Notes: generated from the letters alone by a model not told the origin. 58,982 nt of DNA from a virus (IMGVR_UViG_3300007539_000021:1-58982); one strand, 5' to 3'; numbered from the stretch's first letter, positions 14,827-30,025 are shown. Made by a program: numbers and translations.

Positions 14827-16317
14827 TCAGTAATAGTCTGCGACTTTATTATGTTCTAAAGGCTCATCTTCCTCGTCACTCTCTAAAGGAATAAACCCAC
14901 CTTGTCTAAATCTTAGTAATGCTTGTGTACTGCTATCAACTAAATCGTCATGTTCCATATTAGGAAACCCTGCGAATTGTTCTATCACTTCTTCTCCCCA
15001 CCTTGTTTCTGGACACCATACTACACCAGAACTAAATAAATCTGAAACTGCATTTACTCTTGAAATCTTATCATTACCTCTGCTAGGTGTGTATTCCTGT
15101 ACCGGAATACCTATGGCACGTAGCTCAAATATCAGAGGCATACCTGCAGCCTTAGCCTCAACTATGAAAGCATCAGGTTTGTATTCGTTGTATTTATCCT
15201 GAGCTTTTCGTTTCAACTCAGGAAACTCTAGTCTTTCTTGGTAAGCGTCTAACAAAATAAGATTAGGTACAAACTTACCTTCATCATCTTCTTTGTAAAA
15301 GACACCCCAAGTAGTACAAGCAGAGAAGTCAGCTCTTTGATTTTTCATAAAGGCTGTATCCCAAGACTGAATAATAAACTCACAATCCGGTGGGTTTCTA
15401 CCTTCCCATACTTTCCACCATTCCCTTTTTATCAAAGCTCCCTCTTCGGAGGTAGGGTCTTGTTGGTATTGTGATTGCCATTTGCTATTAGGTAGCTCTG
15501 CTTTCAAAGCAGTTAATTCATCAAGCGACCAAAACTCTTCCCATAAAGGATTACCTGAGGGCAAGATAGCAGGGAGTTCTATAACTTCCCATTGGTCTGC
15601 ACCACCACGTTTAATACTCGCATCAACAACTTGACCGGTCAAATCCCTTTGGTGCCACCTTGTCATTACCACAATGATAGAGCCATTTGGTTGTAAACGT
15701 TGTCTCGGTCCTGAGGTATACCACTCATAGGTACGATTGAAAACATTTACATCTCCACTAGCACCTTCTTGTTCAGAGTGTGGGTCATCAATAATCAATA
15801 GGTCTGCACCTTTACCGGTCACGGCACCACCAACACCTATCGCAAAGTATTCGCCACCCTTATTGGTATTCCAACGTCCGGCAGCCTTACTATCTGATTG
15901 CAAACTGATATCAGGGTAGATAGCTTTATAGTCCTTACTGTTAACTAGGTTTCTTACCTTCCTTCCAAAACCCACAGCTAACTCTGCAGTATGGGCAGTC
16001 TGAATTATCTTCTTATCAGGATATTGCCCTAGAAACCACGCAGGGAGCAAATAAGAGGCGAATTCACTTTTGGTGTGTCTAGGAGGCATATTAATAATTA
16101 AACGCTTTAAATCGCCTCTAGCGACCTTCTCGAACGCTTCAGCCATTATCTCGTGATGTTTACCATGAATAAAGGCTGACCACATCTCGCCGACGAAACT
16201 TAAAAAATTCTGTTGCGACTGCTCACGTTTCTTCGCAGACTCTAACTCCTCAAGCAAATCAAGAAGCTCTAACTTACTATCAGAGTCTAAATTCTTTACT
16301 TGATTTAATATATTCAT
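14827..16317 (-). CDS. terL: Terminase large subunit
   Basis: RLIINMPPRHTKSEF (Walker A variant), LLIIDDP (Walker B), VMTRW, QSWDTA and HDDLVDS RNase H-like nuclease motifs. Confidence 0.95.
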   Translation of the reverse strand: MNILNQVKNLDSDSKLELLDLLEELESAKKREQSQQNFLSFVGEMWSAFIHGKHHEIMAEAFEKVARGDLKRLIINMPPRHTKSEFASYLLPAWFLGQYPDKKIIQTAHTAELAVGFGRKVRNLVNSKDYKAIYPDISLQSDSKAAGRWNTNKGGEYFAIGVGGAVTGKGADLLIIDDPHSEQEGASGDVNVFNRTYEWYTSGPRQRLQPNGSIIVVMTRWHQRDLTGQVVDASIKRGGADQWEVIELPAILPSGNPLWEEFWSLDELTALKAELPNSKWQSQYQQDPTSEEGALIKREWWKVWEGRNPPDCEFIIQSWDTAFMKNQRADFSACTTWGVFYKEDDEGKFVPNLILLDAYQERLEFPELKRKAQDKYNEYKPDAFIVEAKAAGMPLIFELRAIGIPVQEYTPSRGNDKISRVNAVSDLFSSGVVWCPETRWGEEVIEQFAGFPNMEHDDLVDSSTQALLRFRQGGFIPLESDEEDEPLEHNKVADYY

Positions 16318-16328
16318 AAACAATCCAT

Positions 16329-16777: not shown

Positions 16778-17281
16778 TTAGTGGTGGTCGTCTACGACTT
16801 CATTCTCTAGAAGTCTGAGTATCTCTGCCTCGATTGTTGAGGAGTCTCTCTGTTCTTTTACCTCGACTGTGTCTGTGAACATACCGGAGGTTTTACCTAG
16901 TAGTTCCAAAGACCTAACCCTACTTGCCGGAGTAGAGTCCTCGTTGTCTCCTCGACTCTCTGCAAGGAGCCGTTCTAAAACATAACTCCTCGTACGGATA
17001 GAGGAAGCTACTACACCCTCCTCTCGCTTACTGATAGCACGTTGTATGCTTAGGGAAATCTTAGGGTTAGCCAACATCTTGGAAGCTTCTACATTTACCC
17101 ATTTAGGAATGGAGCCGTTCTTGTTTAACTTCACGTCATAGACTTTTGCGTATGCTTCTTTGTAAGTTGTTTTTCCTTTTACTATCTCTTCAATAAAGGC
17201 TCTTTGTTTCGGAGTAAGTTCTGTTTCTGGTTTCGGTTTCGTGCCGACTATTTTTAGGTTGGGTTTTTTCTCATCAGTCAT
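16778..17281 (-). CDS. terS: Terminase small subunit
   Basis: LTPKQRAFIEE...YKEAY...ASKMLANPKI...RVRSLELLGKTSGMFTD TerS HTH pattern; upstream of terL; likely start MTDEKK. Confidence 0.8.
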   Translation of the reverse strand: MTDEKKPNLKIVGTKPKPETELTPKQRAFIEEIVKGKTTYKEAYAKVYDVKLNKNGSIPKWVNVEASKMLANPKISLSIQRAISKREEGVVASSIRTRSYVLERLLAESRGDNEDSTPASRVRSLELLGKTSGMFTDTVEVKEQRDSSTIEAEILRLLENEVVDDHH

Positions 17282-17310
17282 AAGAAATATTTTACCGGTA
17301 AACCTTTTCC
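17282..17310. promoter_or_regulatory. 30-bp palindromic motif, copy 1
   Basis: AAGAAATATTTTACCGGTAAACCTTTTCC abutting the terS start codon at the divergent junction. Confidence 0.65.
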
Positions 17311-17367
17311 TACGTAATGACCTCATAGTGATAGCGAATTAAAGGTGTTTCTTGAGGTGGAATTTAG

Positions 17368-17373
17368 TATAAT
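17368..17373 (+). promoter_or_regulatory. Putative early promoter -10 box
   Basis: Perfect TATAAT at the head of the plus-strand arm; no good -35 at canonical spacing. Confidence 0.5.
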
Positions 17374-17379
17374 TCTCTT

Positions 17380-17795
17380 ATGGACATGACGTTTTTCAGT
17401 ACCCAAAAATCAAGCAAGGACTTGAGGCTCGAACACGTCATAATTTTTGAGGAGGTGTCTATAGAAAAGTAGTTTTAATTTTTATCGGTAGTCTATTCGT
17501 ACAGACTCCGTGAAGGTCGTCCTAGTATTCTTTATTACCCAAAAACTAGGTCAGGTCGTGATGACGGATTAATGGAACAATCTCGAGCCGTACCTTAAAC
17601 ACCCTTACCTAACCGGTATATGGAGTATTGAAACAGATACGAAACCGGTAGGTCTCGAAAGCAAAGTGACAGCAATTGCTCCAACGAGACCGAGTCTTGA
17701 TGTTAAATAAACAGACCCTAAATAATTTTTTTTGCGACAGAAATTCCTAACCAAATTATTTGAGAGGGATAGCGTTTTGTTATCCCTTTCAAATT
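17380..17795 (+). ncRNA. Candidate large structured leader RNA
   Basis: Stems AUGACGU/ACGUCAU, UCAAG/CUUGA, AGUCU/AGACU, CCUAGU/ACUAGG, ACCGGU/ACCGGU, GGUCUCG/CGAGACC; long-range GGCUCGA/UCGAGCC; loop-loop UGGAGUA/UGCUCCA; no long ORF. Confidence 0.55.
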
Positions 17796-17799
17796 TCTT
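17758..17799 (+). terminator. Terminator-like hairpin ahead of hammerhead 1
   Basis: AUUUGAGAGGGAUAGC-GUUUU-GUUAUCCCUUUCAAAU then UUCUU (weak U tract). Confidence 0.5.
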
Positions 17800-17848
17800 A
17801 CTGTCACTAGGTGTGTGCCTAGTCTGAGGAAGCGAAAGCAGAAACAGT
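17800..17848 (+). ncRNA. Type III hammerhead ribozyme 1 (predicted GUC cleavage after 17805)
   Basis: Stem III ACUGU/ACAGU; stem I ACUAGG/CCUAGU with loop UGUGUG; core CUGAGGA; stem II A-GC-GAAA-GC-A; GAAA. Confidence 0.8.
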
Positions 17849-17877
17849 TAACCTATAAATATTTCTTAGGAGGAAAT

Positions 17878-18003
17878 ATGAAAATACAAATGACAGACGT
17901 TCATGTCTCTAAACTGAACAGACGTAATAGAAAGAAACCTATTGCGAAATTTAAACTTGAGAAATTCGACAATGAAATTCTCGTATCTAAGGAGGTGTAC
18001 TAA
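17878..18003 (+). CDS. Small basic hypothetical protein (41 aa)
   Basis: AGGAGG RBS, MKIQMTDVHVSKLNRRNRKK; TAATG coupling to the AAA gene. Confidence 0.7.
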   Translation: MKIQMTDVHVSKLNRRNRKKPIAKFKLEKFDNEILVSKEVY

Positions 18004-19109
18004 TGAGTGCCAAAGATAAAACTTATACTCCTTCGGAAGCTATCGAAGGTATGTTGGAAATTACTCCAATGAAAAGTGCAGACGGAACGGACTTAGTTCC
18101 TTGCTTACTCGGTGGAGTAGGTATCGGTAAGTCCTCTCTTGTCGAACAATATGCTAAGACTCTCGCTAATGGTCGAAAGCTTGTCTACGGAAAAATAAAT
18201 CCGAGTGAGGACGAGTTCTCTCTCATTGACTTGAGGATTGCAGACTTGGAGCCGGAGGACACGAGAGGTGTTCCGGTGGTTGATATGGCTGACGGACAGC
18301 CGGTACAACGTCTCGCTCAATTACAAAACTTGCCGGTCTCCGGAAGTGGAGTTTTGTTTCTTGACGAGTTCGCACAAGCTACTCCGGAAATGCAAAAGAT
18401 TGCCGGACGTGGTGTGCGTGAAAGGATTATTGGCGAAACAAAAATCTCTGACGGATTTAAAATTGTTTTAGCCGGTAATAGACAGACCGATAGAGCCGGA
18501 GCAAATTCTATCCTCGCTCACTTGTTAGACAGAGTGATAGAAATGCACGTGGAAGGCGATACTAATTCTTGGTTAGCTTGGGCAACGAAGAATGATGTAC
18601 ACCCTCTGATAACTTCGTTCATAAACTATCAGCCTCAGTTCTTGAATATGTTCGACCCTAAGTTGAAAGAGAGTCAGAGTTCCTCAAGGACTTGGTCAAT
18701 GGCTAGTCCGATAGTCCGAAGGTATGAGAACGATTTGACTAACTCAATGTTCGGTAAGCTTATGAGTGGTTGTGTTGGCTCAGAGAGTACGGCTGAGTTC
18801 TTAACGTTCGTTAACCTCATGCAAAACGTTCCGTCTCTTGACGACATTGTGAGTGGCGAGGACGTGGAAGTTCCGGAAGGAGTTGGTCTGCAATATGCGA
18901 CTTGCTGTGGACTCGTTAAGGTCTTGTCTGAGTGCAAGGACAAGGACTTAGTTTCCTATTGGGAAAATTCTCTCAAGTATGTTGAGAAGTTCCCAACGGC
19001 TGAGTTCGGTATCTACTTCGTACGTTCTTGTGTTGGAGCAAGACCGGAGTTGGAGAAGAGCAAGGCGTTCGGACAATTCCGTGTTGATAACCAAAACCTA
19101 ATTCTGTAG
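18003..19109 (+). CDS. MoxR/CobS-like AAA+ ATPase
   Basis: Walker A GGVGIGKS, IDLR..DLEPEDTRGVP, Walker B LFLDE, LAGNR, sensor LLDR. Confidence 0.9.
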   Translation: MSAKDKTYTPSEAIEGMLEITPMKSADGTDLVPCLLGGVGIGKSSLVEQYAKTLANGRKLVYGKINPSEDEFSLIDLRIADLEPEDTRGVPVVDMADGQPVQRLAQLQNLPVSGSGVLFLDEFAQATPEMQKIAGRGVRERIIGETKISDGFKIVLAGNRQTDRAGANSILAHLLDRVIEMHVEGDTNSWLAWATKNDVHPLITSFINYQPQFLNMFDPKLKESQSSSRTWSMASPIVRRYENDLTNSMFGKLMSGCVGSESTAEFLTFVNLMQNVPSLDDIVSGEDVEVPEGVGLQYATCCGLVKVLSECKDKDLVSYWENSLKYVEKFPTAEFGIYFVRSCVGARPELEKSKAFGQFRVDNQNLIL

Positions 19110-19123
19110 GTCTTGGTTTTTTT
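19089..19123 (+). terminator. Intrinsic terminator overlapping the AAA gene stop
   Basis: AACCAAAACCUA-AUUCUG-UAGGUCUUGGUU followed by a U run. Confidence 0.6.
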
Positions 19124-19129
19124 GGAAGT

Positions 19130-19164
19130 GAGAGAAATATTTTACTAGTAAGATAGTTTCTCTC
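19130..19164. promoter_or_regulatory. 30-bp palindromic motif, copy 2
   Basis: GAGAGAAATATTTTACTAGTAAGATAGTTTCTCTC, 6 nt before hammerhead 2. Confidence 0.75.
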
Positions 19165-19170
19165 GCTCCC

Positions 19171-19230
19171 ATAAACTGATAATCGAGTGTGACTCGGTCT
19201 GACGATTACGAGAGTATGAAATCAGTTTAT
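19171..19230 (+). ncRNA. Type III hammerhead ribozyme 2 (predicted AUA cleavage after 19181)
   Basis: 10-bp stem III AUAAACUGAU/AUCAGUUUAU; stem I AUCGAG/CUCGGU with loop UGUGA; core CUGACGA; stem II U-UAC-GAGA-GUA-U; GAAA. Confidence 0.85.
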
Positions 19231-19255
19231 TAACTTTTTTTTCATGGAGGTATAT

Positions 19256-20212
19256 ATGAAAAAAGATAAAACTTTAGAGTCTGTTTTTTCAGACTCGTTT
19301 GTTAAGGTGGTCTTTCGCAGAGGTTTACCCTCTGACCAAAAGGTCAATCCTAAAAGCAAGAAGGAGTTAGCAAAGATGTTCAAGTCTGACCCTTCAATGC
19401 ACACGGCTTCGGACTATTTGTTTCCGGAGAAAATCAATTCCTATTTTAGGAAATACTTCGTAGCGTTTGAGACGACTGTGTTCAAGCCGTTGTCGTATCC
19501 TTGGTCGGACGGAGATACTAACTCTTCCCAATGGAGGATTATCCCTAACGACAAAGTGACTCAGTTGGAGAAACTCTACAAGCAACACAAGGCAATGTTT
19601 GAAAAAGCAGTTGACTCGTTTTGTTCCAATTACGATTGGCATATTGAAAATGCCAAGAAGAAATTGGGAGAAGCTTTCAACATCAATAACTATGATGATG
19701 TAGAAACTTTCAGAGCGAAGTGCAAATTTGAAATACAGTTTGGAGCCTTTGAGTCTGTGACATTTTCTAATGACGCTAGAGTTCAATTGTCTGCCGAGCA
19801 ACGTTCAATGATTGAGAGTCAAGTTGCGAGTAATTTCAAAGAGACTCACAACATGATTGCCAAAGAGCAAATGGACAGTCTGACTGTGGCTCTCGACAAT
19901 GTCTTAATTGCAATGGACAAGGAAGGCAACAAAGGGTCGTTCTTTAAACGTGCAGTCTTTGATAACCTCAAGTCTAAAGTTGAGGACGTTCAAAGTATCA
20001 ACGACAAGCTTCTTAAAAGTAAGAAATTGTCCGGTGTGATATCTCAAGTGACTGCGACCTTGACCAAGGTCTCGAACGGCATAGAGTCTCTCAAAGGCAA
20101 GGACGACCTTGCAGTTGAAAACCGAGAGTCTATGAAAGAAGAGATAACCTCTGCCAAGAAAAGTCTTAACGACTCTATCTTCGGTGGACTAATGGGAGGC
20201 GACAATGAGTGA
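19256..20212 (+). CDS. Helical hypothetical protein (possibly DUF3150-like partner of AAA/VWA modules)
   Basis: GGAGG RBS; lies between the AAA and VWA genes; family call inferred mainly from context. Confidence 0.6.
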   Translation: MKKDKTLESVFSDSFVKVVFRRGLPSDQKVNPKSKKELAKMFKSDPSMHTASDYLFPEKINSYFRKYFVAFETTVFKPLSYPWSDGDTNSSQWRIIPNDKVTQLEKLYKQHKAMFEKAVDSFCSNYDWHIENAKKKLGEAFNINNYDDVETFRAKCKFEIQFGAFESVTFSNDARVQLSAEQRSMIESQVASNFKETHNMIAKEQMDSLTVALDNVLIAMDKEGNKGSFFKRAVFDNLKSKVEDVQSINDKLLKSKKLSGVISQVTATLTKVSNGIESLKGKDDLAVENRESMKEEITSAKKSLNDSIFGGLMGGDNE

Positions 20213-21689
20213 TTACAACGTTGCACAAAGACGTCCGGAGTACATGGGTCAGACGGCAGAGCAAGTCATAACAAAAGCTAAGTCTCAGCTAATGGACTCG
20301 GCTACCGGTATGACTTCTATTCTCTTAGGACTTGACCTCATTGAGGACGAGTCCATTGGGACAATGGCTACGGACGGCAAGAGTATTATTTACTCTCCGG
20401 ATTTCACTTTGTCTATGAAGTTCGACCAAATAAAAGGAGTCTTAATTCACGAGGCTCTTCACGTTGTTTGGGGACACCATATACGAAGGTGTGAAGGTGG
20501 TCTTGAGAGACACCCTAAGCTTTGGAACATTGCTACTGACTATGCAATCAATTCATATATTGTTTATGACTTGCATTTAGATTTACCGGAAGGTGGTCTG
20601 CTTGATAGGAAGTATCAATCATGGTCGGCTAATGCAATCTATGACTTCTTGTATGCGAATGACGAGGAGTTGGAGAAAGCAAAGTCTCAGGTTGAGCAAG
20701 GACTAGGTCAAGAGTCAGACGAGCAAGGCGAGTCTGAGTCAGGCGAGTCTGAGTCAGGCGAGGACGAAGGTCAGGGCGAAGGTCAAGACGAAGGTCAAGA
20801 CGAAGGTCAGGGTCAGGGTCAGGGTCAGGACGAGAGTCAGGACGAGGACGAAGGCGAAGGTCAAATGTCCGGACAAGGTGGAGTCAATCTTGACGACTTA
20901 CCTCAGCCGGTTGGTGGTGTCATTGACATGAAGGGCGAAGAAGGACAAGACCTCACTCCTCAAGAAGTTCGAGAGGAGCAGACGAGACTTGACCAACAAG
21001 TTCTTATGGCAGAGAAACTTGAAGGAATGAAAGGAGACTCAGGCAACGTTGACTACCTAGGAGGCAGAGCCGGAGAAATCAAGAAACCTCAAGTTGCTTG
21101 GAACGATTACTTGAGAGAGATACTGACCTCTCGTAAATCTAACAAGAGGTCTTACGCTCGACTCAATAAGAAGTACCAACACTCCGGACTAATCTTGCCG
21201 TCAAAGAAACGTGAGAACGAAATCAAAAACGTTGTCATTTTGAATGACGTATCAGGCAGTACCGAATGGTGTCGTGATGAATTCATTACAGAGACCATGA
21301 CGTTGCTTGAGGAGTTTGCAGTTGAGAAACTGTGGGTCGGAAGGTATGCCTCTAACGCTTTTAGAAATGAGCAAGGAGAATACTTCGACTTGTTCGACAC
21401 GACTCAAGGAGACTGTATGCCGGACAAGGATACGTTCCCATGTCATGGCTCCGGTGGTACTTATGGTGTTGCCGGTTTCAATGCTTTCCTATCTAAGCTT
21501 GAAGAGAGAGACGAGGTTGACTTGCTCATTCACTTCTCAGACGGAGAGGACTACTTTGAAATGGAAGAGTTGGACGAGCCTATGCCGGACAATCTTCCGG
21601 TCATTCACGTCTTTACTGTTGAAGGTAGCTACGGCTTCTCTAATCCGGATAGGGATATGCCTTTTGGCGAGAGGGTGTTCATCAAGTGA
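20205..21689 (+). CDS. Metallopeptidase-like + VWA domain protein (DUF2201-like)
   Basis: TMATDG...HEALH...WNIATDYAIN; acidic G/Q/E linker; MIDAS DVSGS, GGT, FSDG. Confidence 0.85.
   Translation: MSDYNVAQRRPEYMGQTAEQVITKAKSQLMDSATGMTSILLGLDLIEDESIGTMATDGKSIIYSPDFTLSMKFDQIKGVLIHEALHVVWGHHIRRCEGGLERHPKLWNIATDYAINSYIVYDLHLDLPEGGLLDRKYQSWSANAIYDFLYANDEELEKAKSQVEQGLGQESDEQGESESGESESGEDEGQGEGQDEGQDEGQGQGQGQDESQDEDEGEGQMSGQGGVNLDDLPQPVGGVIDMKGEEGQDLTPQEVREEQTRLDQQVLMAEKLEGMKGDSGNVDYLGGRAGEIKKPQVAWNDYLREILTSRKSNKRSYARLNKKYQHSGLILPSKKRENEIKNVVILNDVSGSTEWCRDEFITETMTLLEEFAVEKLWVGRYASNAFRNEQGEYFDLFDTTQGDCMPDKDTFPCHGSGGTYGVAGFNAFLSKLEERDEVDLLIHFSDGEDYFEMEELDEPMPDNLPVIHVFTVEGSYGFSNPDRDMPFGERVFIK
20700..20865 (+). 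repeat. Coding low-complexity repeat (GQ/GE/DE linker)
   Basis: gagtctgagtcaggc x2, gaaggtcaagac x2, cagggt x3. Confidence 0.8.
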
Positions 21690-21749
21690 ACACCTTTTCC
21701 CCGAAAGTTTTACACCATGTTTGACAATTTGTGTTTCGGAATGTCGCTA

Positions 21750-21779
21750 GAGAAAGTATTTACTAGTAAATATTTTCTC
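21750..21779. promoter_or_regulatory. 30-bp palindromic motif, copy 3 (consensus-like)
   Basis: GAGAAAGTATTTACTAGTAAATATTTTCTC; flanks extend the hairpin (UUCGGAAUGUC/GACGUUUCGGG); ~36 nt before hammerhead 3. Confidence 0.8.
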
Positions 21780-21815
21780 GCAGGGACGTTTCGGGACGCA
21801 GATTTTCACCTCTGA

Positions 21816-21875
21816 AAAACTGATAATCAAGTGTGTGCTTGGTCTGAATGATTACAAAAGTATGAAATCAGTTTT
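21816..21875 (+). ncRNA. Type III hammerhead ribozyme 3, core-insertion variant (predicted AUA cleavage after 21825)
   Basis: Stem III AAAACUGAU/AUCAGUUUU; stem I AUCAAG/CUUGGU with loop UGUGUG; core CUGAAUGA (one extra nt); stem II U-UAC-AAAA-GUA-U; GAAA. Confidence 0.75.
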
Positions 21876-21902
21876 ATTAACTTAATCTTTATAGGAGGTA
21901 CT

Positions 21903-22631
21903 ATGGAAGATTTAAAACTACAGTTGTGGTTAGCCAAAGACGGAATGTTTACAGAAGTCTGTAAGCATGACGACCACACCAAATGGGACATTTCTTTTTT
22001 AAGAAGTGTGAGACATCAATTAGACATGAAGGGTAGCTTGTCCGAGAAACAATGGACTATGGTTGCGAAGATACGAGACAAAGTTCTTGCTCCTCCAAAA
22101 CCTAAAGAGACTATTCAAGTCAACGAGATAAGCAAAGTGTTGGAGTTCCTAAACAGAGTTCCTAACTTTTCATCTATCAGAGTTGCTATGTCTGTTCCAA
22201 TTGCCGGAGGTAGTTCCGGAAATGCTGATTGGTTTTTGAAGATGTACGTTGCTACTGACAAGTCAAAGTTTGAAGGTCAGTTGCAGTTGCTCGTCAGTTG
22301 TGACCCTGACTTTCAATATAGCAAAGAGTATCTTGGTAGGGTGGACTTGAACGGATTGTTCTTTCCTCACTTTAGATACTCCAATGTTCAGTTGGACTTC
22401 GAGAAACAAGCAATCAAAGACGAGGCAGTCAAGACTCTAAATGCAATTGCCCTTGACCCTGAGAAAGTTGTCCGAGAGTTCGGACAGTTGACCGGTCAAT
22501 GTTCTTTCTGCAAAAGGAGATTGTCTGACGATATCTCAAAAGCGTACGGATACGGAAAGCATTGTGCTAAGAAGTATTCGTTAACGTATCCGACTAAAAA
22601 ACAATTTGAAATGCAAGGAGGTGTAGCATGA
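21903..22631 (+). CDS. DUF6011-like Zn-finger protein
   Basis: C-terminal GQCSFCKRRLSDDISKAYGYGKHCAK; AGGAGG RBS. Confidence 0.7.
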   Translation: MEDLKLQLWLAKDGMFTEVCKHDDHTKWDISFLRSVRHQLDMKGSLSEKQWTMVAKIRDKVLAPPKPKETIQVNEISKVLEFLNRVPNFSSIRVAMSVPIAGGSSGNADWFLKMYVATDKSKFEGQLQLLVSCDPDFQYSKEYLGRVDLNGLFFPHFRYSNVQLDFEKQAIKDEAVKTLNAIALDPEKVVREFGQLTGQCSFCKRRLSDDISKAYGYGKHCAKKYSLTYPTKKQFEMQGGVA

Positions 22632-22933
22632 CAGAAGTTAAAGAAGAGATGTTATATATAGATGAACGTATAGTTCTGAAAGATATAGTCAACGACTTGG
22701 TATTGGCAGTTGATGTCATTAAGAGGTTAAGTAAACAATTGTCTTATCGAGTAGATAATATCCAAAGACTAGACGCTATAAGTCTAGACGAGGTTGAGTC
22801 TATTCGAGACTATCTTGACTCTATTCTTAGGTTGTCCGTGGAAAGCGTTGACGACTTTCAACAAGGAGCCGACCATTTATCAGACTTGGTTGTTGCTATC
22901 AAAGACAACAGAAAGTCCGGAGGTGGAGCATGA
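22628..22933 (+). CDS. Hypothetical protein
   Basis: AGGAGG RBS, ATGA coupling. Confidence 0.7.
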   Translation: MTEVKEEMLYIDERIVLKDIVNDLVLAVDVIKRLSKQLSYRVDNIQRLDAISLDEVESIRDYLDSILRLSVESVDDFQQGADHLSDLVVAIKDNRKSGGGA

Positions 22934-23214
22934 GTTATATCGACAATAAGACAATCCAAAAATGGTCAAAGCAGAGGTACAAGCTTATGCAAAAGTCTGC
23001 AAGGAAGGTTGACGTTCTGCTCACAATTCCGGTGGAAGAAGCTATAGCTATAGCAACACTTCTTGAAGTCTTGATTGAGTCTGCTAGTGGCTCAGAGCCT
23101 TTGGAGTTTTGGAAGAGTGATGAAGAAGTTGTAAAGATTTGTAATTCAGTTTTGAAATTACTCGACAAAGGAAAAGTCAAAGTCTCGGAGGTGGAAGATG
23201 AAAAGACTACTTAG
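22930..23214 (+). CDS. Hypothetical protein
   Basis: GGAG RBS, ATGA coupling. Confidence 0.7.
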   Translation: MSYIDNKTIQKWSKQRYKLMQKSARKVDVLLTIPVEEAIAIATLLEVLIESASGSEPLEFWKSDEEVVKICNSVLKLLDKGKVKVSEVEDEKTT

Positions 23215-23767
23215 GTTTAAGTTCTACCCTCGTGGTGGATTAATGGGCAGAGCCGGTATTATCCATGGCGAAAGCTTTGCTGAGTTAGTTCCTCAAGTGG
23301 AAGAGATTATGTTCTCAGAGTCAAAGCCTTATGGAAAATACTTTGTGTTCAAGGACGACTACAGAAGTGGGCAGTTTGAAATCGCTAGTGAGGTTTCAAA
23401 GTTTAGGTCTCGCTCCGGCAGACCTATGGCTTTCAGTATGGTCTTTCGTCACTACGCAATGTTAAGACAAGCCGGTTGTTATGACCCTGACCTTTCTATT
23501 GCAGAGATAGACGAGAAGTATCACAAGTTCTTGAATAACAAAAAGAACAAAAAAGATATTGAGTTGTTTCGCTATGCCAATACTCACTTCACAATAACTC
23601 ATACTCCTATTGCTGAGTTATTTCTAAAGTGGCTTGATAAGTTTGGGACGGAAGAAGATTTGAAAGTTCTAGATGATTTTTTACATCATGGCAATATGTA
23701 TACTCCGACTGAACAGTTTGAGAAAGGTATTAGATATAGATTAAAAAATATAAAACAGTCTGCTTAA
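23198..23767 (+). CDS. Hypothetical protein
   Basis: GGAGG RBS; last gene before a strong terminator. Confidence 0.7.
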   Translation: MKRLLRFKFYPRGGLMGRAGIIHGESFAELVPQVEEIMFSESKPYGKYFVFKDDYRSGQFEIASEVSKFRSRSGRPMAFSMVFRHYAMLRQAGCYDPDLSIAEIDEKYHKFLNNKKNKKDIELFRYANTHFTITHTPIAELFLKWLDKFGTEEDLKVLDDFLHHGNMYTPTEQFEKGIRYRLKNIKQSA

Positions 23768-23771
23768 AATT

Positions 23772-23820
23772 AGCCGAGGCTATGTGGTATTTATTTACTG
23801 CATAGTCTCGGTTTTTTTTT
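23772..23820 (+). terminator. Intrinsic terminator ending the early operon
   Basis: AGCCGAGGCUAUGUGGUA...UACUGCAUAGUCUCGGU followed by a long U tract. Confidence 0.9.
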
Positions 23821-23901
23821 GGCTCAAAATTTCTAGAGATGATGACATTTTTCAGGTTTGTTCTCCTGCGACTTTACATTTTTTTATGACAATCCCTTGT
23901 T

Positions 23902-23931
23902 GAGAAAGTATTTACTAGTAAATATTTTTTC
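23902..23931. promoter_or_regulatory. 30-bp palindromic motif, copy 4
   Basis: GAGAAAGTATTTACTAGTAAATATTTTTTC, intergenic; flanked by complementary TCCTGCG/CGCAGGA. Confidence 0.8.
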
Positions 23932-24086
23932 ACGCAGGATAAATCTGGCTGTGGAATACAACAAAGTTTGTGAAAAAAATCAACAGCAGATAGTTATTTT
24001 TACGCTATAAAAACTAATCGTATTATTCCGTATGATTATTAAGTGGCTGACGTATACCGGTCTTAATATAAATGGCTGACGTATGC

Positions 24087-24116
24087 TTGTCAGGTCATAT
24101 CATAATGCTATATAAT
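24087..24116 (+). promoter_or_regulatory. Sigma70-type promoter, preceded by tandem TGGCTGACGTAT boxes (24044, 24073)
   Basis: TTGTCA-18 bp-TATAAT. Confidence 0.65.
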
Positions 24117-24122
24117 GTGGAT

Positions 24123-24262
24123 AAGTTCGTGTCCTTTGCACGAACACCTCCTAAGAAAACAAAGACTTGAGGCAGAGTCTTTGGAAGTTAAAAGATTGGA
24201 GGCAGACTTGAACATAGATAATTCTCCAAAGTTCTTCTATCAAGTTTGTCTCCTTTTTTTTA
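24123..24262 (+). ncRNA. Candidate ~140-nt small RNA with exposed anti-SD (CACCUCCU)
   Basis: Between a promoter and a U8 tract; hairpins GUUCGUGU/GCACGAAC, AAAGACU/AGUCUUU, 14-bp GGAGGCAGACUUGA/UCAAGUUUGUCUCC. Confidence 0.55.
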
Positions 24263-24871: not shown

Positions 24872-25379
24872 TCTCGTTAACATACCACAGTTGAAGTAAA
24901 GCCTCGGCACAATCAACAATCACATTATATTCTGACTCGGTAATTCTTTTAGGATTACCGGTCATTATTCTATAAAACACTTTCTCTTTTTCATTTCCAC
25001 ATAGCTCCTGAAGTTGTTTCACAGGGGGAGAAAGTACAATTGAGCGTGGCATAGCCCTTTGCAGAAAGTAATTACTAGTAAATATTTTCTCCATGGAGGG
25101 TGGAGCTGAAGCGAAACAACCTGATTTAGATAACAAGTTATAGTATTTATCACATACCATGTGTTGTCTTTCGTTCAGATAATCTTGGATATAAAGCTTG
25201 TCTATTATGTGTTGGTCAAAGACAATTGCCTGACCTATACGAGAGTTGTCTATCTTTTGGACTTGGACTTTATGTCTCTTGTGTAAGTAAGGATTGCCTA
25301 CATCATTTACGTAGACTTCGTCTCTAGAAATCCCAATCGTAGTCGTCAGTTTCTTCTTGAGTCTCAGAGTATCTTCCAT
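24822..25379 (-). CDS. Hypothetical protein downstream of primase-helicase
   Basis: 185-aa ORF overlapping the helicase end; true start uncertain. Confidence 0.6.
   Translation of the reverse strand: MEDTLRLKKKLTTTIGISRDEVYVNDVGNPYLHKRHKVQVQKIDNSRIGQAIVFDQHIIDKLYIQDYLNERQHMVCDKYYNLLSKSGCFASAPPSMEKIFTSNYFLQRAMPRSIVLSPPVKQLQELCGNEKEKVFYRIMTGNPKRITESEYNVIVDCAEALLQLWYVNETSPVSLFQKAFLKETS
25062..25091. promoter_or_regulatory. 30-bp palindromic motif, copy 5 (intragenic)
   Basis: CAGAAAGTAATTACTAGTAAATATTTTCTC. Confidence 0.7.
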
Positions 25380-27087
25380 TGATAGGATTGAATGATAAGT
25401 CTGCCTTGCCTAGCTGTGCGTTCCAATTCCACCTCGCCTTGGTACAATGGACTTCTACATTATCCGACCCTCTGTATACTGTCAACCCTACATCTGCCTT
25501 TGTACTCCACGAAATACTGCCTGATATATCCATGAGATTACAGACATTCTTTTTACTTCTGTCTTGTGGTTTCTGTGGGTGTGCTATGAAGATACACAAC
25601 ACGTCATGTTGCTTACAAAACAATTGCACTTTGCTTAACATATCTGAAATCATGTGGGTTTCTAGACCACTAGTCCTATCAGTATGGATAAAATTAAAGG
25701 GGTCAATCACACAAATCTTTACTGAGTTTCTCATTATGGAATGATGAAACTTTTCAAGCACGTTCTCAATCGTTGGCAACCCTCCGTCTAAATAGTCTTG
25801 GAACAGCACGTGTTCTCCTATCCATGCCTCTGCTTCGTCCTTCTCCTCTTGGCTCATACGCTCATGCCCATTGGTTTTGAAGAAAGGTTTGCCGGTTATT
25901 ATTTGTGCTAACTGTACCGAATGATAGCTAGGATTTTTTTCAAAACTAGCATAACAAGTTTTCCAATTGTAATTCTTACCGGCATTGACTACTAATTGGT
26001 CTATGAAAGCACTCTTACCTTCTCCGGCATAGCCGGTCACTACATAAAGCAATCCGGTTTGTAGATTAAATACCTTATCAACAGACTCATATCCGGTGTT
26101 TATGCCCTGAGGTTTGCCCTCGTCATACAAGCTTTGAAATTCATCTGTGTAAAAACTTATATCGTTTAGACCATGCAAAGGTATTGGCTCTGCATTAATC
26201 ACTTGCTTACGTACTGTCTCCTCGTCTGTCTCAATAAGCAATTCGTTTGCGTCTTTGTATCCTTTGTAATCCATGCGATAGCACTTTGCTTTCCCTATCC
26301 TACGGCTCAATTCATGGGTCAATACATCTCCGGCTGAGTCTTGGTCAGTAGCTAAGATAACTTTCTTTACATCAAGGAACTTATCTCTATCCTCCCATAC
26401 ATAAGCAAATCTTCCGTCCTCACTTGGGTCTACCTTGCCCTCAGTAATCTTGTTTGGACTCCCATTTGGCACAGAATAAACAGCTATGTTGTAGTCTTTG
26501 AAAGCTTCTGCTATAGCTAGTACGTCCATTTCCCCTTCGGTAATAACAACTGTATCCTCTATTGTTTCTTTGTTGCTATCAAATTCATGCTCTCCCCAAA
26601 ACCTTTTTGCATTGTTCTCCCACCAAAAATCCTTGTCGCCATTGGCTTTCCTGAACTTGACAGCTTCAACTTCTCCGTCAGGATTGTAGAAAGAGAAACC
26701 TATTACCGGTAAATATTTTCTCTTTTCCCGTGCTACACGAAATTTATCTGCTGTTTCTAAACTAATCTTCCTATCAAGCAACCACTTGTTTGCTTTCTCT
26801 TCTTGCTTATCTGCTAAAACTATTTTCTTCTGTGGCTTTTCTGCCTTAACTACTTTCATAACTCCTCCCTTTTTGATAGCACTTTGGTATCTATTTATAA
26901 CTCCCTTGATGTTGCAATGATGACAATGATAAACAACCTTACTCTCGTCAATCTTTACGCTCAATGGTGTATCGTGTTTGTTTTTTGTTCTTGTATCTTG
27001 GCAATTTGGACATGATATTTTTCTTTGTCCGTGACTCAGACCTGACGTATGCCGGTCTAACTTTTCATTTAATTCTTGGCTAATCAT
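25324..27087 (-). CDS. Primase-helicase (T7 gp4/Twinkle-like)
   Basis: Zn-binding CPNC...CHHC, TOPRIM ITEGEMD and ATDQDSAG, Walker A GYAGEGKS, VIDPFN, IAHP, DISGS. Confidence 0.92.
   Translation of the reverse strand: MISQELNEKLDRHTSGLSHGQRKISCPNCQDTRTKNKHDTPLSVKIDESKVVYHCHHCNIKGVINRYQSAIKKGGVMKVVKAEKPQKKIVLADKQEEKANKWLLDRKISLETADKFRVAREKRKYLPVIGFSFYNPDGEVEAVKFRKANGDKDFWWENNAKRFWGEHEFDSNKETIEDTVVITEGEMDVLAIAEAFKDYNIAVYSVPNGSPNKITEGKVDPSEDGRFAYVWEDRDKFLDVKKVILATDQDSAGDVLTHELSRRIGKAKCYRMDYKGYKDANELLIETDEETVRKQVINAEPIPLHGLNDISFYTDEFQSLYDEGKPQGINTGYESVDKVFNLQTGLLYVVTGYAGEGKSAFIDQLVVNAGKNYNWKTCYASFEKNPSYHSVQLAQIITGKPFFKTNGHERMSQEEKDEAEAWIGEHVLFQDYLDGGLPTIENVLEKFHHSIMRNSVKICVIDPFNFIHTDRTSGLETHMISDMLSKVQLFCKQHDVLCIFIAHPQKPQDRSKKNVCNLMDISGSISWSTKADVGLTVYRGSDNVEVHCTKARWNWNAQLGKADLSFNPINGRYSETQEETDDYDWDF
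26693..26722. promoter_or_regulatory. 30-bp palindromic motif, copy 6 (intragenic)
   Basis: GAGAAACCTATTACCGGTAAATATTTTCTC. Confidence 0.6.
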
Positions 27088-27782: not shown

Positions 27783-28315
27783 AAGACAAGATATTAATAG
27801 AGGCACTACAAAGCTACGTTATATCTCTCAAGCTAGAGATAGACGAATTGAAAAGTCAGTTGAAAGAAAAAGCAACAGATGTCAAGGCAGTACAACAGAC
27901 TACACAAAAAAGATTTGCCGTAATCCAAAATACTAAACCGATTGTTGTAGAAGAAAAAGCACAAGAGGTAAAGGAAGAAGAGGTAGTAGTCATACCTCAC
28001 AACCCAAAAGAAATTCTCAAGAAGATAGGTCATTGCAAATACTCAGAACTAGATATCATAGCTTCTATCTACAAAGAAGCTGATTGGTTTTTAGAAACAG
28101 TCACAAGGCGACCTATGAACGCTAAGGCTGAATTAGTTGCTCAACAATGTCTAGATAGATACAGAGATAACAACATAAGTTTTTACGAACTTAGGAAGGA
28201 GTCTTACAATATGTATACTCATACTGTACTATCATCACAAGGACTACTTTGCAGATTGGGTAGAGCCATATATCATTGTGGCAACGAGGAGGAAAGAAAG
28301 CTTTGGGATTTCTAG
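27779..28315 (+). CDS. Hypothetical protein
   Basis: GGAGG RBS, ATGA coupling. Confidence 0.7.
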   Translation: MKDKILIEALQSYVISLKLEIDELKSQLKEKATDVKAVQQTTQKRFAVIQNTKPIVVEEKAQEVKEEEVVVIPHNPKEILKKIGHCKYSELDIIASIYKEADWFLETVTRRPMNAKAELVAQQCLDRYRDNNISFYELRKESYNMYTHTVLSSQGLLCRLGRAIYHCGNEEERKLWDF

Positions 28316-28386
28316 ATTATTACTTCACAGTATTGGGAGCGACTCTCGTTGTCGCTATAGTCATTATTATTTCTGCAACAAGATGA
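28303..28386 (+). CDS. Small hydrophobic peptide (27 aa), not in ORF track
   Basis: GAGGAGG RBS, TTG start, GFLDYYFTVLGATLVVAIVIIISATR; ATGA overlap with exonuclease start. Confidence 0.45.
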   Translation: MGFLDYYFTVLGATLVVAIVIIISATR

Positions 28387-30007: not shown

Positions 30008-30025
30008 TTAAATATGGAGGAATAT

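What the first reader, a model, noticed from the sequence alone, without database searches (positions are those of the whole stretch)
17282..23931. Candidate RNA-processing system for the early operon: repeating [hairpin/terminator]-[palindrome]-[hammerhead]-[RBS] units
Seen: each non-overlapping gene block of the early arm starts behind a similar unit. Block 1: palindrome 17282, -10 box, ~400-nt structured leader, hairpin, hammerhead 1, RBS. Block 2: terminator 19089, palindrome 19130, hammerhead 2, RBS. Block 3: extended hairpin with palindrome 21750, hammerhead 3, RBS. The operon ends at terminator 23772, followed by palindrome 23902. Predicted cleavage sites lie 73, 75 and 78 nt upstream of the three start codons. 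Established: hammerhead cleavage leaves a 5'-OH, a poor substrate for 5'-monophosphate-stimulated RNase E decay; T7 cuts its early transcript with RNase III hairpins. Inference: the phage self-processes its early transcript into three stabilised mRNAs (small ORF+AAA; helical protein+peptidase-VWA; DUF6011 block) plus a free leader RNA, with the palindrome as a control site. I know of no description of this combination, but I could not search for one.
Basis: partly seen in the sequence, partly recalled or inferred. Interest (0 to 1): 0.88.

Follow-up and report, generated by a model that had tools for sequence, protein, structure and literature searches.

The report
Hammerhead ribozymes punctuating a phage operon
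Three small self-cutting (hammerhead) RNAs, each sitting behind a stable hairpin and just ahead of a ribosome-binding site, divide one operon of an uncultured marine phage into three gene blocks; the layout is real and well conserved, but it is a kind of arrangement known in phages since 2011.

Summary
The window is a 58,982-bp marine phage record. It carries exactly three type III hammerhead motifs (17800-17848, 19171-19230, 21816-21875), all on the + strand, in the only three sizeable gaps of the operon 17380-23813. A model built only from other phages scores them 54-64 bits; the next best hit is 16 bits. Across 92 distinct relatives, 94% of stem cells pair, with strong covariation. Each hammerhead follows a stable hairpin and lies 25-30 nt before a Shine-Dalgarno and start codon. 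This stop-hairpin-hammerhead-RBS geometry is family-wide.

Self-processing into three mRNAs is plausible but untested, and all three cores here are non-canonical. The arrangement is not new: Perreault et al. 2011 described and tested clustered hammerheads flanking genes in prophages. This scan holds 254 similar notes on other DNA.

The palindrome is a separate element. It has nine copies in the genome, seven of them away from ribozymes, and it is absent from two hammerhead-bearing related records I checked. Rfam thresholds miss this subfamily. The 400-nt leader is conserved and always ends in hairpin plus hammerhead.

Verdict: a new member of a known kind.

The parts
17283..17310 (.). Palindrome copy 1 (AGAAATATTTTACCGGTAAACCTTTTCC). 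It lies inside the first codons of the minus-strand small terminase gene, about 60 bp upstream of the -10 box.
   Evidence: conserved in relatives; terS identity
17368..17373 (+). TATAAT -10 box of the operon promoter. Inferred transcription start is near 17380.
   Evidence: Invariant in 4 of 4 aligned sequences. Relatives of the second clade have TATAAT/TAGAAT at the equivalent place. No convincing -35 was found.
17380..17757 (+). Conserved non-coding leader with no ORF of 40 aa or more on this strand. It is probably a structured RNA.
   Evidence: About 95% mean column identity among close relatives, with a CCGG/CCGG to UGCU/AGCA compensatory change. nhmmer homologues were found in a second clade. 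RNAalifold gives 37 pairs, 8 of them with changes on both sides. No Rfam hit.
17758..17794 (+). 16-bp hairpin closing the leader, 5 nt before hammerhead 1.
   Evidence: -21.7 kcal/mol, z -8.15; flagged terminator-like; conserved with G-U/A-U changes in 11 of 11 leaders
17800..17848 (+). Hammerhead 1, type III. GUC cleavage after 17805; core CUGAGGA; stem II A-GC-GAAA-GC-A (A.A at 10.1/11.1, 2 bp).
   Evidence: R2 56.7 bits, E 2.6e-14. The same minimal stem II follows the leader hairpin in 9 of 9 relatives printed.
17878..19109 (+). Block 1: a 41-aa ORF (ATG 17878, RBS AGGAGG) overlapping the AAA_5/MoxR-like ATPase gene 18003-19109.
19089..19125 (+). Terminator-like hairpin over the ATPase stop codon, followed by a U-run.
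   Evidence: Fold. A C-G to U-A compensatory change is seen in a relative (context lines). It was not picked up by the consensus scan.
19124..19169 (+). Palindrome copy 2 (core 19130-19164), extended into a roughly 20-bp hairpin that abuts hammerhead 2.
19171..19230 (+). Hammerhead 2, type III. AUA cleavage after 19181; core CUGACGA; stem II U-UAC-GAGA-GUA-U (U.U at 10.1/11.1).
   Evidence: R2 54.1 bits. In relatives with about 93% ATPase identity it reads CUGAUGA with G10.1-C11.1 and a 4-bp stem II.
19256..21689 (+). Block 2: a weak DUF3150-like gene (19256-20212) overlapping the DUF2201 metallopeptidase/VWA-like gene 20205-21689.
21722..21808 (+). 38-pair extended hairpin with palindrome copy 3 (21750-21779) at its tip.
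   Evidence: -44.8 kcal/mol, z -7.5. The outer arms differ in sequence but still pair in relatives: CGGAAUGUC/GACGUUUCG versus CGUGACC/GGUCACG (context lines).
21816..21875 (+). Hammerhead 3, type III. AUA cleavage after 21825; 8-nt box CUGAAUGA (one extra base at position 6a/7); U.U at 10.1/11.1.
   Evidence: R2 64.5 bits. The same 8-nt box is kept in relatives whose stem I carries a compensatory A-U to G-C change.
21903..23767 (+). Block 3: the DUF6011 gene and three overlapping small genes.
23772..23822 (+). Intrinsic terminator ending the operon (18 pairs plus U9).
23902..23931 (.). Palindrome copy 4, with no ribozyme next to it.

Best explanation
One promoter (-10 box at 17368) drives a transcript that runs to the terminator at 23772. 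Three type III hammerhead ribozymes in it cut themselves after 17805, 19181 and 21825.

Each sits in a compact cassette: [upstream gene stop] - [stable hairpin] - [hammerhead] - [25-30 nt with Shine-Dalgarno] - [start codon].

Cleavage would give:
(i) a roughly 425-nt leader RNA, and two upstream mRNAs, whose 3' ends are a hairpin plus an 11-17 nt tail ending in a 2',3'-cyclic phosphate;
(ii) three mRNAs that begin with a 5'-OH and carry most of the folded ribozyme as a structured 5' cap ahead of the ribosome-binding site.

The likely benefit is to uncouple the fate and dosage of the three gene blocks. Ends become defined and protected, independent of what lies upstream. This resembles what RNase III sites do in T7 early RNA and what ribozyme insulators do in synthetic circuits.

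The 30-bp palindrome is a different thing. It is a dispersed, sequence-conserved element of this phage subclade, most likely the site of a sequence-specific protein. It happens to form the tip of two of the three upstream hairpins.

Shown: motif identity, covariation, placement and family-wide geometry. Inferred: cleavage in vivo, single-transcript origin, and the effect on stability.
For: Identity of the ribozymes:
- The descriptor finds 3 hits against 0.02 per shuffle.
- The minimum-free-energy folds are three-way junctions.
- Model R2 was built from 123 hits in other viral contigs; the window was not among them. It scores the three at 64.5, 56.7 and 54.1 bits with filters off. The next best hit is 16.0 bits.
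- On 92 distinct family sequences, 94.0% of cells pair against 60.7% in shuffles. The covariation score is 0.809 against 0.214 (0 of 500 shuffles reach it) and against 0.04-0.13 for slid partners. U16.1-A15.1 is kept in 91 of 91 sequences.
- One family member hits Rfam Hammerhead_3 at 41.8 bits, E 3.2e-6.
- In close relatives HH2 changes from U.U to G10.1-C11.1 and from CUGACGA to CUGAUGA. Stem I shows A-U/G-C swaps.

Placement:
- In 27 of 27 loci with two or more hits, all ribozymes are on one strand.
- 118 of 123 hits are not inside a long same-strand ORF.
- The upstream stop lies a median 36 nt before the ribozyme.
- 86 of 124 distinct contexts have an SD plus start codon within 140 nt. Among these, the start lies a median 28 nt after the ribozyme (10th-90th percentile 21-42).

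Upstream hairpin:
- The 60 nt upstream fold at a mean of -17.5 kcal/mol, against -10.5 for 263 ribozyme-free same-strand gaps (p 3.6e-21).
- 92 of 118 contexts fold at -15 kcal/mol or lower, and the last paired base lies a median 0 nt from the ribozyme.

Precedent: clustered hammerheads flanking genes in prophages cleave in vitro and in vivo. U10.1-U11.1, 2-bp stem II and an insertion after A6 are all documented natural variants (PMC3088659; passages, section 8).

Palindrome as a separate element: nine copies in the window. There are 6 sites in record G001 and 10 in G004, against 0 for the reversed control. Hammerhead-bearing records G003 and G005 have 0.
Against: - No cleavage data exist. The only transcript evidence I could lay was assembled contigs, which cannot show RNA ends.
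- RNA-library contigs of relatives at least 90% alike bridge the HH1 site (17767-18035) and the HH3 site (21754-21974). So uncut RNA, or carried-over DNA, exists.
- All three window cores deviate from the consensus. By the 2011 paper's own filter, a mispair at 10.1/11.1 leads to rejection of a hit. The insertion after A6 gave low activity.
- Rfam's Hammerhead_3 finds nothing in the window even at E <= 10.
- A terminator-like hairpin with a U-run lies between blocks 1 and 2. Block 2 may therefore need read-through or its own promoter.
- A 5'-OH is not stabilising everywhere. The glmS ribozyme's cleaved mRNA is degraded by cellular RNases (review passage; that this is RNase J1 acting on the 5'-OH is recalled).
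- Predicted accessibility of the SD and start barely changes on cleavage: 0.468 to 0.499, n = 79.
Confidence: 0.6

Rival explanations
1. Each block is its own transcription unit. A terminator ends the previous unit, and the palindrome is or overlaps a regulated promoter/operator. The hammerhead merely trims a short 5' leader off each primary transcript. It would then act as a natural insulator that makes the 5' UTR independent of the promoter, not as a cutter of a polycistronic RNA.
For: - A terminator-like hairpin plus U-run lies at 19089-19125, directly before palindrome 2 and HH2.
- The palindrome at 23900-23928 scores as a weak sigma-70-like site, TTGAGA-17-TATTTT, 9 of 12. The same halves occur in the other copies.
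- The core TTTACYRGTAAA is conserved in sequence between copies and between diverged phages. That fits protein recognition better than a mere hairpin.
- Copies 32842 and 33883 are not stable as RNA hairpins: -3.8 and -6.1 kcal/mol, no better than shuffles.
Against: - Family-wide, the gap from the upstream stop to the ribozyme is a median 36 nt. That is too short for a terminator plus a promoter.
- HH1 has no palindrome within 480 nt and follows a 425-nt leader.
- Promoter-like matches in the region are no more frequent than in shuffles: 17 against 15.7.
- Three palindrome copies lie inside coding sequence.
- Pfam found no helix-turn-helix regulator in the 30 ORFs I scanned.
Confidence: 0.2
2. 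The three window ribozymes are slow or dead derivatives of once-active hammerheads. The hairpins and the internal terminator do the real work (attenuation, 3'-end protection, perhaps RNase III processing of the 38-pair hairpin), and the hammerhead shapes persist only as structured 5' UTRs.
For: - Non-canonical cores in all three: A.A with a 2-bp stem II, U.U, and U.U with an 8-nt box.
- Low activity was reported for the A6a insertion.
- There is no Rfam hit.
- RNA-library contigs bridge two of the sites.
- A 38-pair duplex at 21722-21808 is long enough for RNase III. The length requirement is recalled, not tested.
Against: - The variant features are themselves conserved while the stems covary.
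- The A-GC-GAAA-GC-A stem II follows the leader hairpin in 9 of 9 relatives printed, across three different stem I sequences.
- CUGAAUGA recurs in 4 distinct family sequences with compensatory stem changes.
- All invariant catalytic positions are intact: C3, U4, G5, A6, G8, A9, G12, A13, A14, A15.1-U16.1 and H17.
- U.U at 10.1/11.1 and 2-bp stem II are described in active natural ribozymes.
Confidence: 0.13
3. After cleavage, the ends of a ribozyme-flanked segment are rejoined, either by the hammerhead's reverse reaction or by an RtcB-type ligase. This would give circular or spliced RNAs.
For: - The block 2 RNA (19182-21825) would start with HH2's body and end with HH3's 5' strand. The two share the same stem III (AAACUGAU/AUCAGUUU), so the ends can rebuild a complete hammerhead.
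- Among 57 successive pairs in 57 non-redundant loci, 25 (44%) give a chimeric stem III of 5 bp or more. Random pairs from different loci give 28%. Chimeric stem I gives 7% against 5%.
Against: - HH2 and HH3 may simply be recent duplicates.
- The HH1/HH2 pair gives only 1 bp.
- The search pattern I used fixed part of stem III in one ribozyme per locus, which inflates compatibility.
- The 2011 authors looked for circular or spliced products in other clusters and detected none (passage).
- No back-joint appeared in the laid contigs. The single joint listed, 22163/22641 on opposite strands, is unrelated.
Confidence: 0.05

Closest known systems
Clustered hammerhead ribozymes flanking genes or short gene blocks in prophages (Perreault et al. 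2011, PMC3088659; passages and section 8 read)
   Same: - Several hammerheads lie on one strand, between genes of a phage operon, with varying cargo genes.
- The proposed role is to cut long phage transcripts into operon- or gene-length mRNAs.
- The natural variants include U10.1-U11.1, 2-bp stem II and an insertion after A6.
   Different: - The published tested clusters are from Agrobacterium, Azorhizobium and Clostridium prophages. This one is in an uncultured marine phage of about 59 kb.
- This is a type III subfamily with a U-GUGU-G loop I that stays below Rfam's threshold.
- The abutting upstream hairpin and the fixed spacing of about 28 nt to the start codon are not mentioned in the passages I read. 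The paper's figures and supplements were not visible to me.
HHphage of haloviruses HF1/HF2 (same paper, passage)
   Same: A hammerhead lies just upstream of the start codon of the first gene of an early polycistronic transcript. The mapped 5' end falls within 3 nt of the cleavage site.
   Different: It is a single ribozyme of a structurally different variant, 13 nt from the start codon, in an archaeal virus.
RNase III processing sites of the T7 early transcript
   Same: Intercistronic structured elements cut a phage polycistronic RNA into separate mRNAs and leave a protective hairpin at the upstream 3' end.
   Different: T7 relies on a host protein enzyme acting on dsRNA hairpins. Here the RNA is predicted to cut itself, giving 5'-OH and 2',3'-cyclic phosphate ends.
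RiboJ-type ribozyme insulators of synthetic biology (seen only as use in the listing; the original design is recalled)
   Same: A type III hammerhead placed between a variable upstream sequence and the ribosome-binding site, so that the mature 5' UTR is constant.
   Different: RiboJ is engineered from a plant satellite RNA ribozyme and carries an added downstream hairpin. Here the extra hairpin is upstream, and the elements are natural and intercistronic.
Rfam RF00008 Hammerhead_3
   Same: Same topology and same catalytic boxes. One member of this phage subfamily matches at 41.8 bits, E 3.2e-6.
   Different: - None of the window's three appears even at E <= 10.
- No match of any family reached its gathering score in the 16 relatives' loci I scanned.

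Membership tests
Hammerhead ribozyme (type III) | Three-way junction with stems I and II closed by loops and stem III open, supported by covariation | tested here: met
   Minimum-free-energy folds. With 9 distinct sequences: 97.2% paired, 11 of 17 pairs changed on both sides, 0 of 500 shuffles reach it. With 92 distinct sequences: 94.0% paired, covariation 0.809 against 0.214. Both alignments were fitted to the model, which favours the structure.
Hammerhead ribozyme (type III) | Core boxes C3-U4-G5-A6-N7-G8-A9 and G12-A13-A14 in the correct junction strands | tested here: met
   HH1 has CUGAGGA...GAAA and HH2 has CUGACGA...GAAA. For HH3 see the next row.
Hammerhead ribozyme (type III) | Seven-nucleotide CUGANGA box without insertions (applied to HH3) | tested here: not met
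   HH3 reads CUGAAUGA. An insertion after A6 is a documented natural variant with low activity. The same box occurs in 4 of 96 parsed family sequences and in 3 of 9 HH1 orthologues.
Hammerhead ribozyme (type III) | A15.1-U16.1 pair and a non-G nucleotide (H17) at the cleavage site | tested here: met
   The triplets are GUC, AUA and AUA. U-A is kept in 91 of 91 family sequences.
Hammerhead ribozyme (type III) | Watson-Crick pair at 10.1/11.1 (usually G-C) | tested here: not met
   The window has A.A, U.U and U.U. G-C is present in HH2 of relatives with about 93% ATPase identity and in 53 of 83 family sequences with letters there. Natural U.U variants are described.
Hammerhead ribozyme (type III) | Score at or above Rfam RF00008 gathering threshold (48.5 bits) | tested here: not met
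   No hit in the window at gathering, at E <= 10, or with the single family on the genome. The best relative scores 41.8 bits. There were 0 hits in 16 relatives' loci at gathering.
Hammerhead ribozyme (type III) | Site-specific self-cleavage giving 5'-OH and 2',3'-cyclic phosphate | not testable with these tools
   Only assembled contigs of RNA libraries were available.
Clustered phage/prophage hammerheads (Perreault 2011) | Two or more hammerheads on one strand flanking genes or short gene blocks of a phage | tested here: met
   Three on the + strand bound three gene blocks. In 27 of 27 multi-hit relatives' loci all hits are on one strand.
RNase III-type intercistronic processing (T7-like) | Long imperfect dsRNA hairpin between cistrons that is cut by host RNase III | tested here: inconclusive
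   A 38-pair hairpin at 21722-21808 and a roughly 20-pair one at 19124-19169 exist. Cutting by RNase III cannot be tested here.
Ribozyme insulator (RiboJ-like) | Cleavage frees or standardises the ribosome-binding site | tested here: inconclusive
   The predicted unpaired probability of SD through start rises only from 0.468 to 0.499 (n = 79, Wilcoxon p 0.0096). The window values are 0.35 to 0.31, 0.61 to 0.61 and 0.47 to 0.50.

The most novel reading that the evidence does not exclude
The hairpin-hammerhead cassettes may be more than cutters. Block 2 RNA (19182-21825) has ends that can rebuild a complete hammerhead with an 8-bp stem III. It would then be rejoined, by the ribozyme's reverse reaction or by a host RtcB-type ligase acting on its 5'-OH and 2',3'-cyclic phosphate ends. 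The product would be a circular, exonuclease-proof, translatable phage mRNA. The conserved 425-nt leader would be released by HH1 as a free regulatory RNA.
Probability: 0.05. Interest if true: 0.85.

Novelty: new member of a known kind. Interest (0 to 1): 0.33.

Why it matters
[quoted passage not shown] This phage adds no new principle.

The family around it is nonetheless a useful comparative set. I collected 100 distinct ribozyme sequences. They sit in a strict stop-hairpin-ribozyme-SD geometry, in front of at least 37 unrelated gene clusters, and they include conserved 'sub-optimal' cores.

That geometry points to a concrete, testable function: two-sided end protection and insulation of neighbouring cistrons.

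It also shows that standard Rfam thresholds miss a widespread phage hammerhead subtype. This matters for annotating marine viromes and Patescibacteria MAGs.

Tried and rejected
1. Rfam. There was no hammerhead at gathering on the whole window, at E <= 10 on 17000-24200, or with RF00008 alone on the genome. The microRNA-family matches are just the long hairpins. I did not take the absence as evidence against the motif, because a family member scores 41.8 bits and my own models are decisive.

2. Transcript evidence. Laying four of them, all from one study, gave low-depth fragments of relatives 90-97% alike and no table of ends. Uncovered stretches, for example 19240-19493 in all four runs, prove nothing. 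I draw no habitat or expression claim from these small shares.

3. Translation unmasking by cleavage. The predicted SD accessibility changes by only 0.03. I rejected this as the main function.

4. A cultured model. R1 and R2 find no credible hammerhead in Pelagibacter phages HTVC027P and HTVC023P, phage DSL-LC04, phage 023Pt_psg01 or Synechococcus phage MinM2. The best scores are 14.9 and 14.6 bits, E about 0.09. DNA similarity to deposited phages: none.

5. A regulator for the palindrome. Pfam found no DNA-binding family in the 30 ORFs scanned. This was not exhaustive for the genome.

6. The palindrome centre as covariation evidence for a hairpin. The two central bases occur as TA, CG, TG and CA in different copies and relatives. 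They also fall in the 4-nt loop of the RNA fold. They therefore say nothing either way.

7. Distant ATPase relatives L009 and L010 (28% identity) have no hammerhead by descriptor or by R1.

8. Literature. Searches found no paper describing the abutting hairpin, the fixed spacing or the palindrome association. The library is partial and supplements are closed. Dataset S1 and Figures S6-S8 of PMC3088659 may already contain this subtype.

9. Of the 114 stretches found by the pattern, I searched with R1 only the 79 new loci listed (L022-L100; L015, also listed, had been searched). The stored but unlisted loci entered only the nhmmer search. One hammerhead per locus in that set was selected by a pattern fixing CUGUC, UGUGUG and CUGAUGA. 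Core, loop and stem III frequencies are therefore biased towards those letters.

Full report
WHAT THE WINDOW IS

The window is a complete virus record of 58,982 bases. It has about 38% G+C and no tRNA. The first 300 bases recur near the far end at 92% identity.

The large terminase is closest, at 53-58% identity, to phage DSL-LC04, phage 023Pt_psg01 and Pelagibacter phages HTVC027P and HTVC023P, all 57-62 kb. The relatives found in IMG/VR are mostly contigs of 56-62 kb.

The finding lies between the minus-strand terminase genes and a strong terminator. The terminase genes are terL at 14827-16323 and terS at 16778-17326. The plus-strand genes between them and the terminator are:
- a 41-codon ORF (ATG 17878);
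- an AAA_5/MoxR-like ATPase (18003-19109);
- a weak DUF3150-like protein (19256-20212);
- a DUF2201 metallopeptidase/VWA-like protein (20205-21689);
- a DUF6011 protein (21903-22631);
- three small ORFs, running to 23767.

Genes inside each block overlap. The only gaps are 17327-17877, 19110-19255 and 21690-21902.

THE OBSERVATION

A hammerhead descriptor of my own found exactly three matches, all on the plus strand, one in each gap: 17800-17848, 19171-19230 and 21816-21875. One hundred shuffles gave 0.02 matches on average. Each folds at minimum free energy into the expected three-way junction.

The cuts would fall after C17805 (GUC), A19181 (AUA) and A21825 (AUA). The resulting 5' UTRs are 72, 74 and 77 nt.

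The accompanying features are also there:
- TATAAT at 17368, invariant in relatives.
- A 16-pair hairpin at 17758-17794 (-21.7 kcal/mol).
- A terminator-like hairpin with a U-run at 19089-19125.
- Palindrome-tipped hairpins at 19124-19169 and 21722-21808. The latter has 38 pairs and -44.8 kcal/mol.
- The terminator at 23772-23813.

ARE THEY REALLY HAMMERHEADS?

Rfam says nothing. There is no hit at gathering, none at E <= 10 on the region, and none for RF00008 alone on this genome. All three cores deviate from the consensus:
- HH1 has an A.A pair at 10.1/11.1 and a 2-bp stem II.
- HH2 has U.U at 10.1/11.1.
- HH3 has U.U and an 8-nt CUGAAUGA box.

Comparative evidence settles the matter.

In contigs whose ATPase is about 93% identical, HH2 reads CUGAUGA with G10.1-C11.1 and a 4-bp stem II. 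Its stem I gains a C-G in place of U.G. HH3-like copies elsewhere swap A-U for G-C in stem I while keeping the 8-nt box.

I built a first model (R1) from four HH2/HH3 sequences. It recovered HH1 and further ribozymes in relatives. On nine distinct sequences, 97.2% of cells pair and 11 of 17 pairs change on both sides; no shuffle of 500 reaches this.

I then scanned IMG/VR with a pattern fixing CUGUC, a 6-bp stem I, loop UGUGUG and CUGAUGA. It matched 114 stretches. In the 79 newly listed loci, R1 found 123 ribozymes at E <= 0.01.

On their 92 distinct rows, 94.0% of cells pair against 60.7% when shuffled. The covariation score is 0.809 against 0.214, and against 0.04-0.13 with slid partners. 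The U16.1-A15.1 pair is kept in 91 of 91. One measure, the number of pairs with any double change, does not discriminate: 15 observed, reached by 320 of 500 shuffles. The alignment is also fitted to the model.

A second model (R2) was built from those external hits only. With filters off it scores the window's three at 64.5, 56.7 and 54.1 bits; the next match is 16.0 bits.

One family member matches Rfam Hammerhead_3 at 41.8 bits, below the 48.5 cut-off. No match of any Rfam family reaches its gathering score in the 16 relatives' loci scanned. The subfamily is therefore real but sits under Rfam's threshold.

The deviations seen here are all described in natural ribozymes. They include a U10.1-U11.1 start of stem II, 2-bp stems II and an insertion after A6, the last with low activity (PMC3088659, section 8).

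The variants are themselves conserved:
- The A-GC-GAAA-GC-A stem II follows the leader hairpin in 9 of 9 relatives printed, with three different stem I sequences.
- Position 7 in those relatives is A, U, G or AU.

THE CASSETTE

Across 124 distinct ribozyme contexts, 86 have a Shine-Dalgarno and start codon within 140 nt downstream. Among those 86, the start codon lies a median 28 nt past the ribozyme (10th-90th percentile 21-42).

Other placement figures come:
- In 27 of 27 loci with several hits, all lie on one strand.
- The median spacing between successive hits is 1,110 nt.
- 118 of 123 hits are outside long same-strand ORFs.
- The upstream stop lies a median 36 nt before the ribozyme.

The 60 nt upstream fold far better than ribozyme-free intergenic gaps of the same loci: -17.5 against -10.5 kcal/mol, p 3.6e-21. 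The fold reaches -15 kcal/mol or lower in 92 of 118 contexts, and the last paired base lies a median 0 nt from the ribozyme.

The genes that follow fall into 37 similarity clusters among 75 distinct ORFs. They include the ATPase and the DUF2201 protein themselves in some relatives.

THE PALINDROME

The 30-bp element (consensus GAGAAAGTATTTACYRGTAAATATTTTCTC) has nine copies in the window. Only 19130 and 21750 abut a ribozyme. Copy 17283 lies 500 nt before HH1, inside terS.

Its core stands within 130 nt upstream of 14 of 124 family contexts. From the flanking sequence I read, these sit after the ATPase or DUF2201 genes.

Whole-record searches gave 6 sites in G001 and 10 in G004, against 0 for a reversed control. 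There were none in G002, G003 or G005, although G003 and G005 carry hammerheads.

As RNA, copies 32842 and 33883 are no more stable than shuffles. At the ribozyme-linked sites the stability comes from extended arms, which differ in sequence between relatives yet still pair.

The conserved core therefore looks like a recognition site for a sequence-specific factor. The extensions look like RNA hairpins. I found no DNA-binding family among 30 ORFs. I regard the palindrome as a separate dispersed element that has been co-opted as the tip of two upstream hairpins. It is not a defining part of the ribozyme unit.

THE LEADER

Bases 17380-17799 carry no ORF of 40 aa or more on the plus strand. They are about 95% identical in mean column identity among close relatives, with a four-base compensatory swap.

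Homologues exist in a second clade, where whole hairpin modules come and go. A -10 box stands at the equivalent start. RNAalifold predicts 37 pairs, 8 with double changes. This is modest support, because it rests on essentially two clades.

In every case the leader ends in the same hairpin followed by an HH1-type ribozyme. Release of a free RNA of about 425 nt is plausible.

MECHANISM

The best reading is a single transcript from about 17380 to the terminator at 23772-23813, cut by the three ribozymes.

Upstream products would end in hairpin, short tail and cyclic phosphate. Downstream products would start with a 5'-OH and the folded ribozyme body, then the SD.

The inference is that this protects both new ends and uncouples the blocks, possibly together with attenuation at 19089. 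That a 5'-OH evades 5'-monophosphate-stimulated RNase E is recalled knowledge.

Points against:
- In Bacillus, the 5'-OH glmS product is degraded (review passage; enzyme recalled). The effect therefore depends on the unknown host.
- Predicted SD exposure hardly changes on cleavage, so unmasking of translation is not supported.
- Contigs from RNA libraries bridge the HH1 and HH3 sites. This may be uncut RNA or DNA carry-over; contigs cannot show ends.

COMPARISON WITH WHAT IS KNOWN

Perreault et al. [quoted passage not shown] They showed cleavage of three clusters in vitro and of the Agrobacterium one in vivo.

A 2019 review repeats the idea and calls the roles largely elusive.

This scan holds 254 notes with the same words in at least 242 genomes. 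They include hairpin-plus-type-III arrays in a Saccharibacteria-like operon. My own search agrees: the pattern matches 36 bacterial or MAG contigs, many labelled Saccharibacteria or other Patescibacteria, and these carry 44 R2 hits.

The finding is thus a clean new member of a known kind. The details that may be new are the abutting upstream hairpin, the fixed spacing, the conserved minimal variants and the leader. I could not check them against the 2011 supplements.

VERDICT

Novelty: a new member of a known kind. Interest is about 0.33.

The boldest reading not excluded is ligation of the block 2 RNA into a circle. Its ends rebuild a full hammerhead. Chimeric stem III of 5 bp or more occurs in 25 of 57 successive pairs, against 28% of controls. 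I give this reading about 5%.

Noticed in passing
window 17380-17799; L097:1241-1671, L176, L177, L042, L178, L179, L120, L070: A conserved non-coding leader of about 420 nt lies between the -10 box and hammerhead 1. It has homologues in a second clade, with hairpin modules inserted or deleted. Shared sequence islands include GGAGGUG, CCGA(G/C)UCU and AAUAAA. It has no Rfam family.
   Followed up: partly
L176, L177, L042, L178, L179, L097, L120, L004, L070 (75 nt after the leader hairpin): In HH1 orthologues the variable core position 7 is A (4 of 9), AU (3 of 9), U (1) or G (1). Stem II (A-GC-GAAA-GC-A) is invariant. The 8-nt box therefore looks like a tolerated expansion of position 7 rather than decay.
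   Followed up: partly
L140-L175 (GTDB genome/MAG contigs): The same hammerhead subtype (6-7 bp stem I, U-GUGU-G loop) gives 44 strong R2 hits in 36 contigs. Many are labelled Saccharibacteria or other Patescibacteria, some Gammaproteobacteria, and one is the isolate Dyella tabacisoli L4-6. Several contigs hold 3-4 copies.
   Followed up: partly
window 1-300 vs 58581-58880; 348-387 vs 58928-58967: The two ends of the record repeat each other (92% over 300 nt, then 40 nt identical). This fits a terminal repeat or a circular assembly with strain variation, although the record is classed as linear.
   Followed up: no
window 20749-20876: A 12-nt periodic repeat lies inside the DUF2201 gene. It encodes a Gly/Gln/Asp/Glu-rich low-complexity linker. 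The read-laying tool skipped 20795-20866 as a repeat.
   Followed up: no
window 19173-19227 (contigs of runs X1 and X5): RNA-library contigs carry an HH2-like ribozyme with different flanks. Upstream is a hairpin like the one before HH1; downstream is another AAGGAGG leader. The same ribozyme therefore sits in another cassette in a co-occurring phage.
   Followed up: no
window 24087-24116: This is the best sigma-70-like promoter match of the region (TTGTCA-18-TATAAT, 11 of 12). It lies just after the operon's terminator and palindrome copy 4, ahead of ORFs starting at 24115.
   Followed up: no
L064:6724-6803 and 9239-9325: A hammerhead-rich relative has long AT-rich intergenic palindromic hairpins with ACTAGT-containing arms. 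They have a different sequence from the window's palindrome.
   Followed up: no
window 25324-27087, 28278-29279, 30014-30799, 32538-32846: Replication/recombination module: a Toprim-DnaB-like primase-helicase, a PD-(D/E)XK nuclease, a Sak single-strand annealing protein and a RecA-dependent nuclease. Palindrome copies lie inside or beside several of these genes.
   Followed up: no
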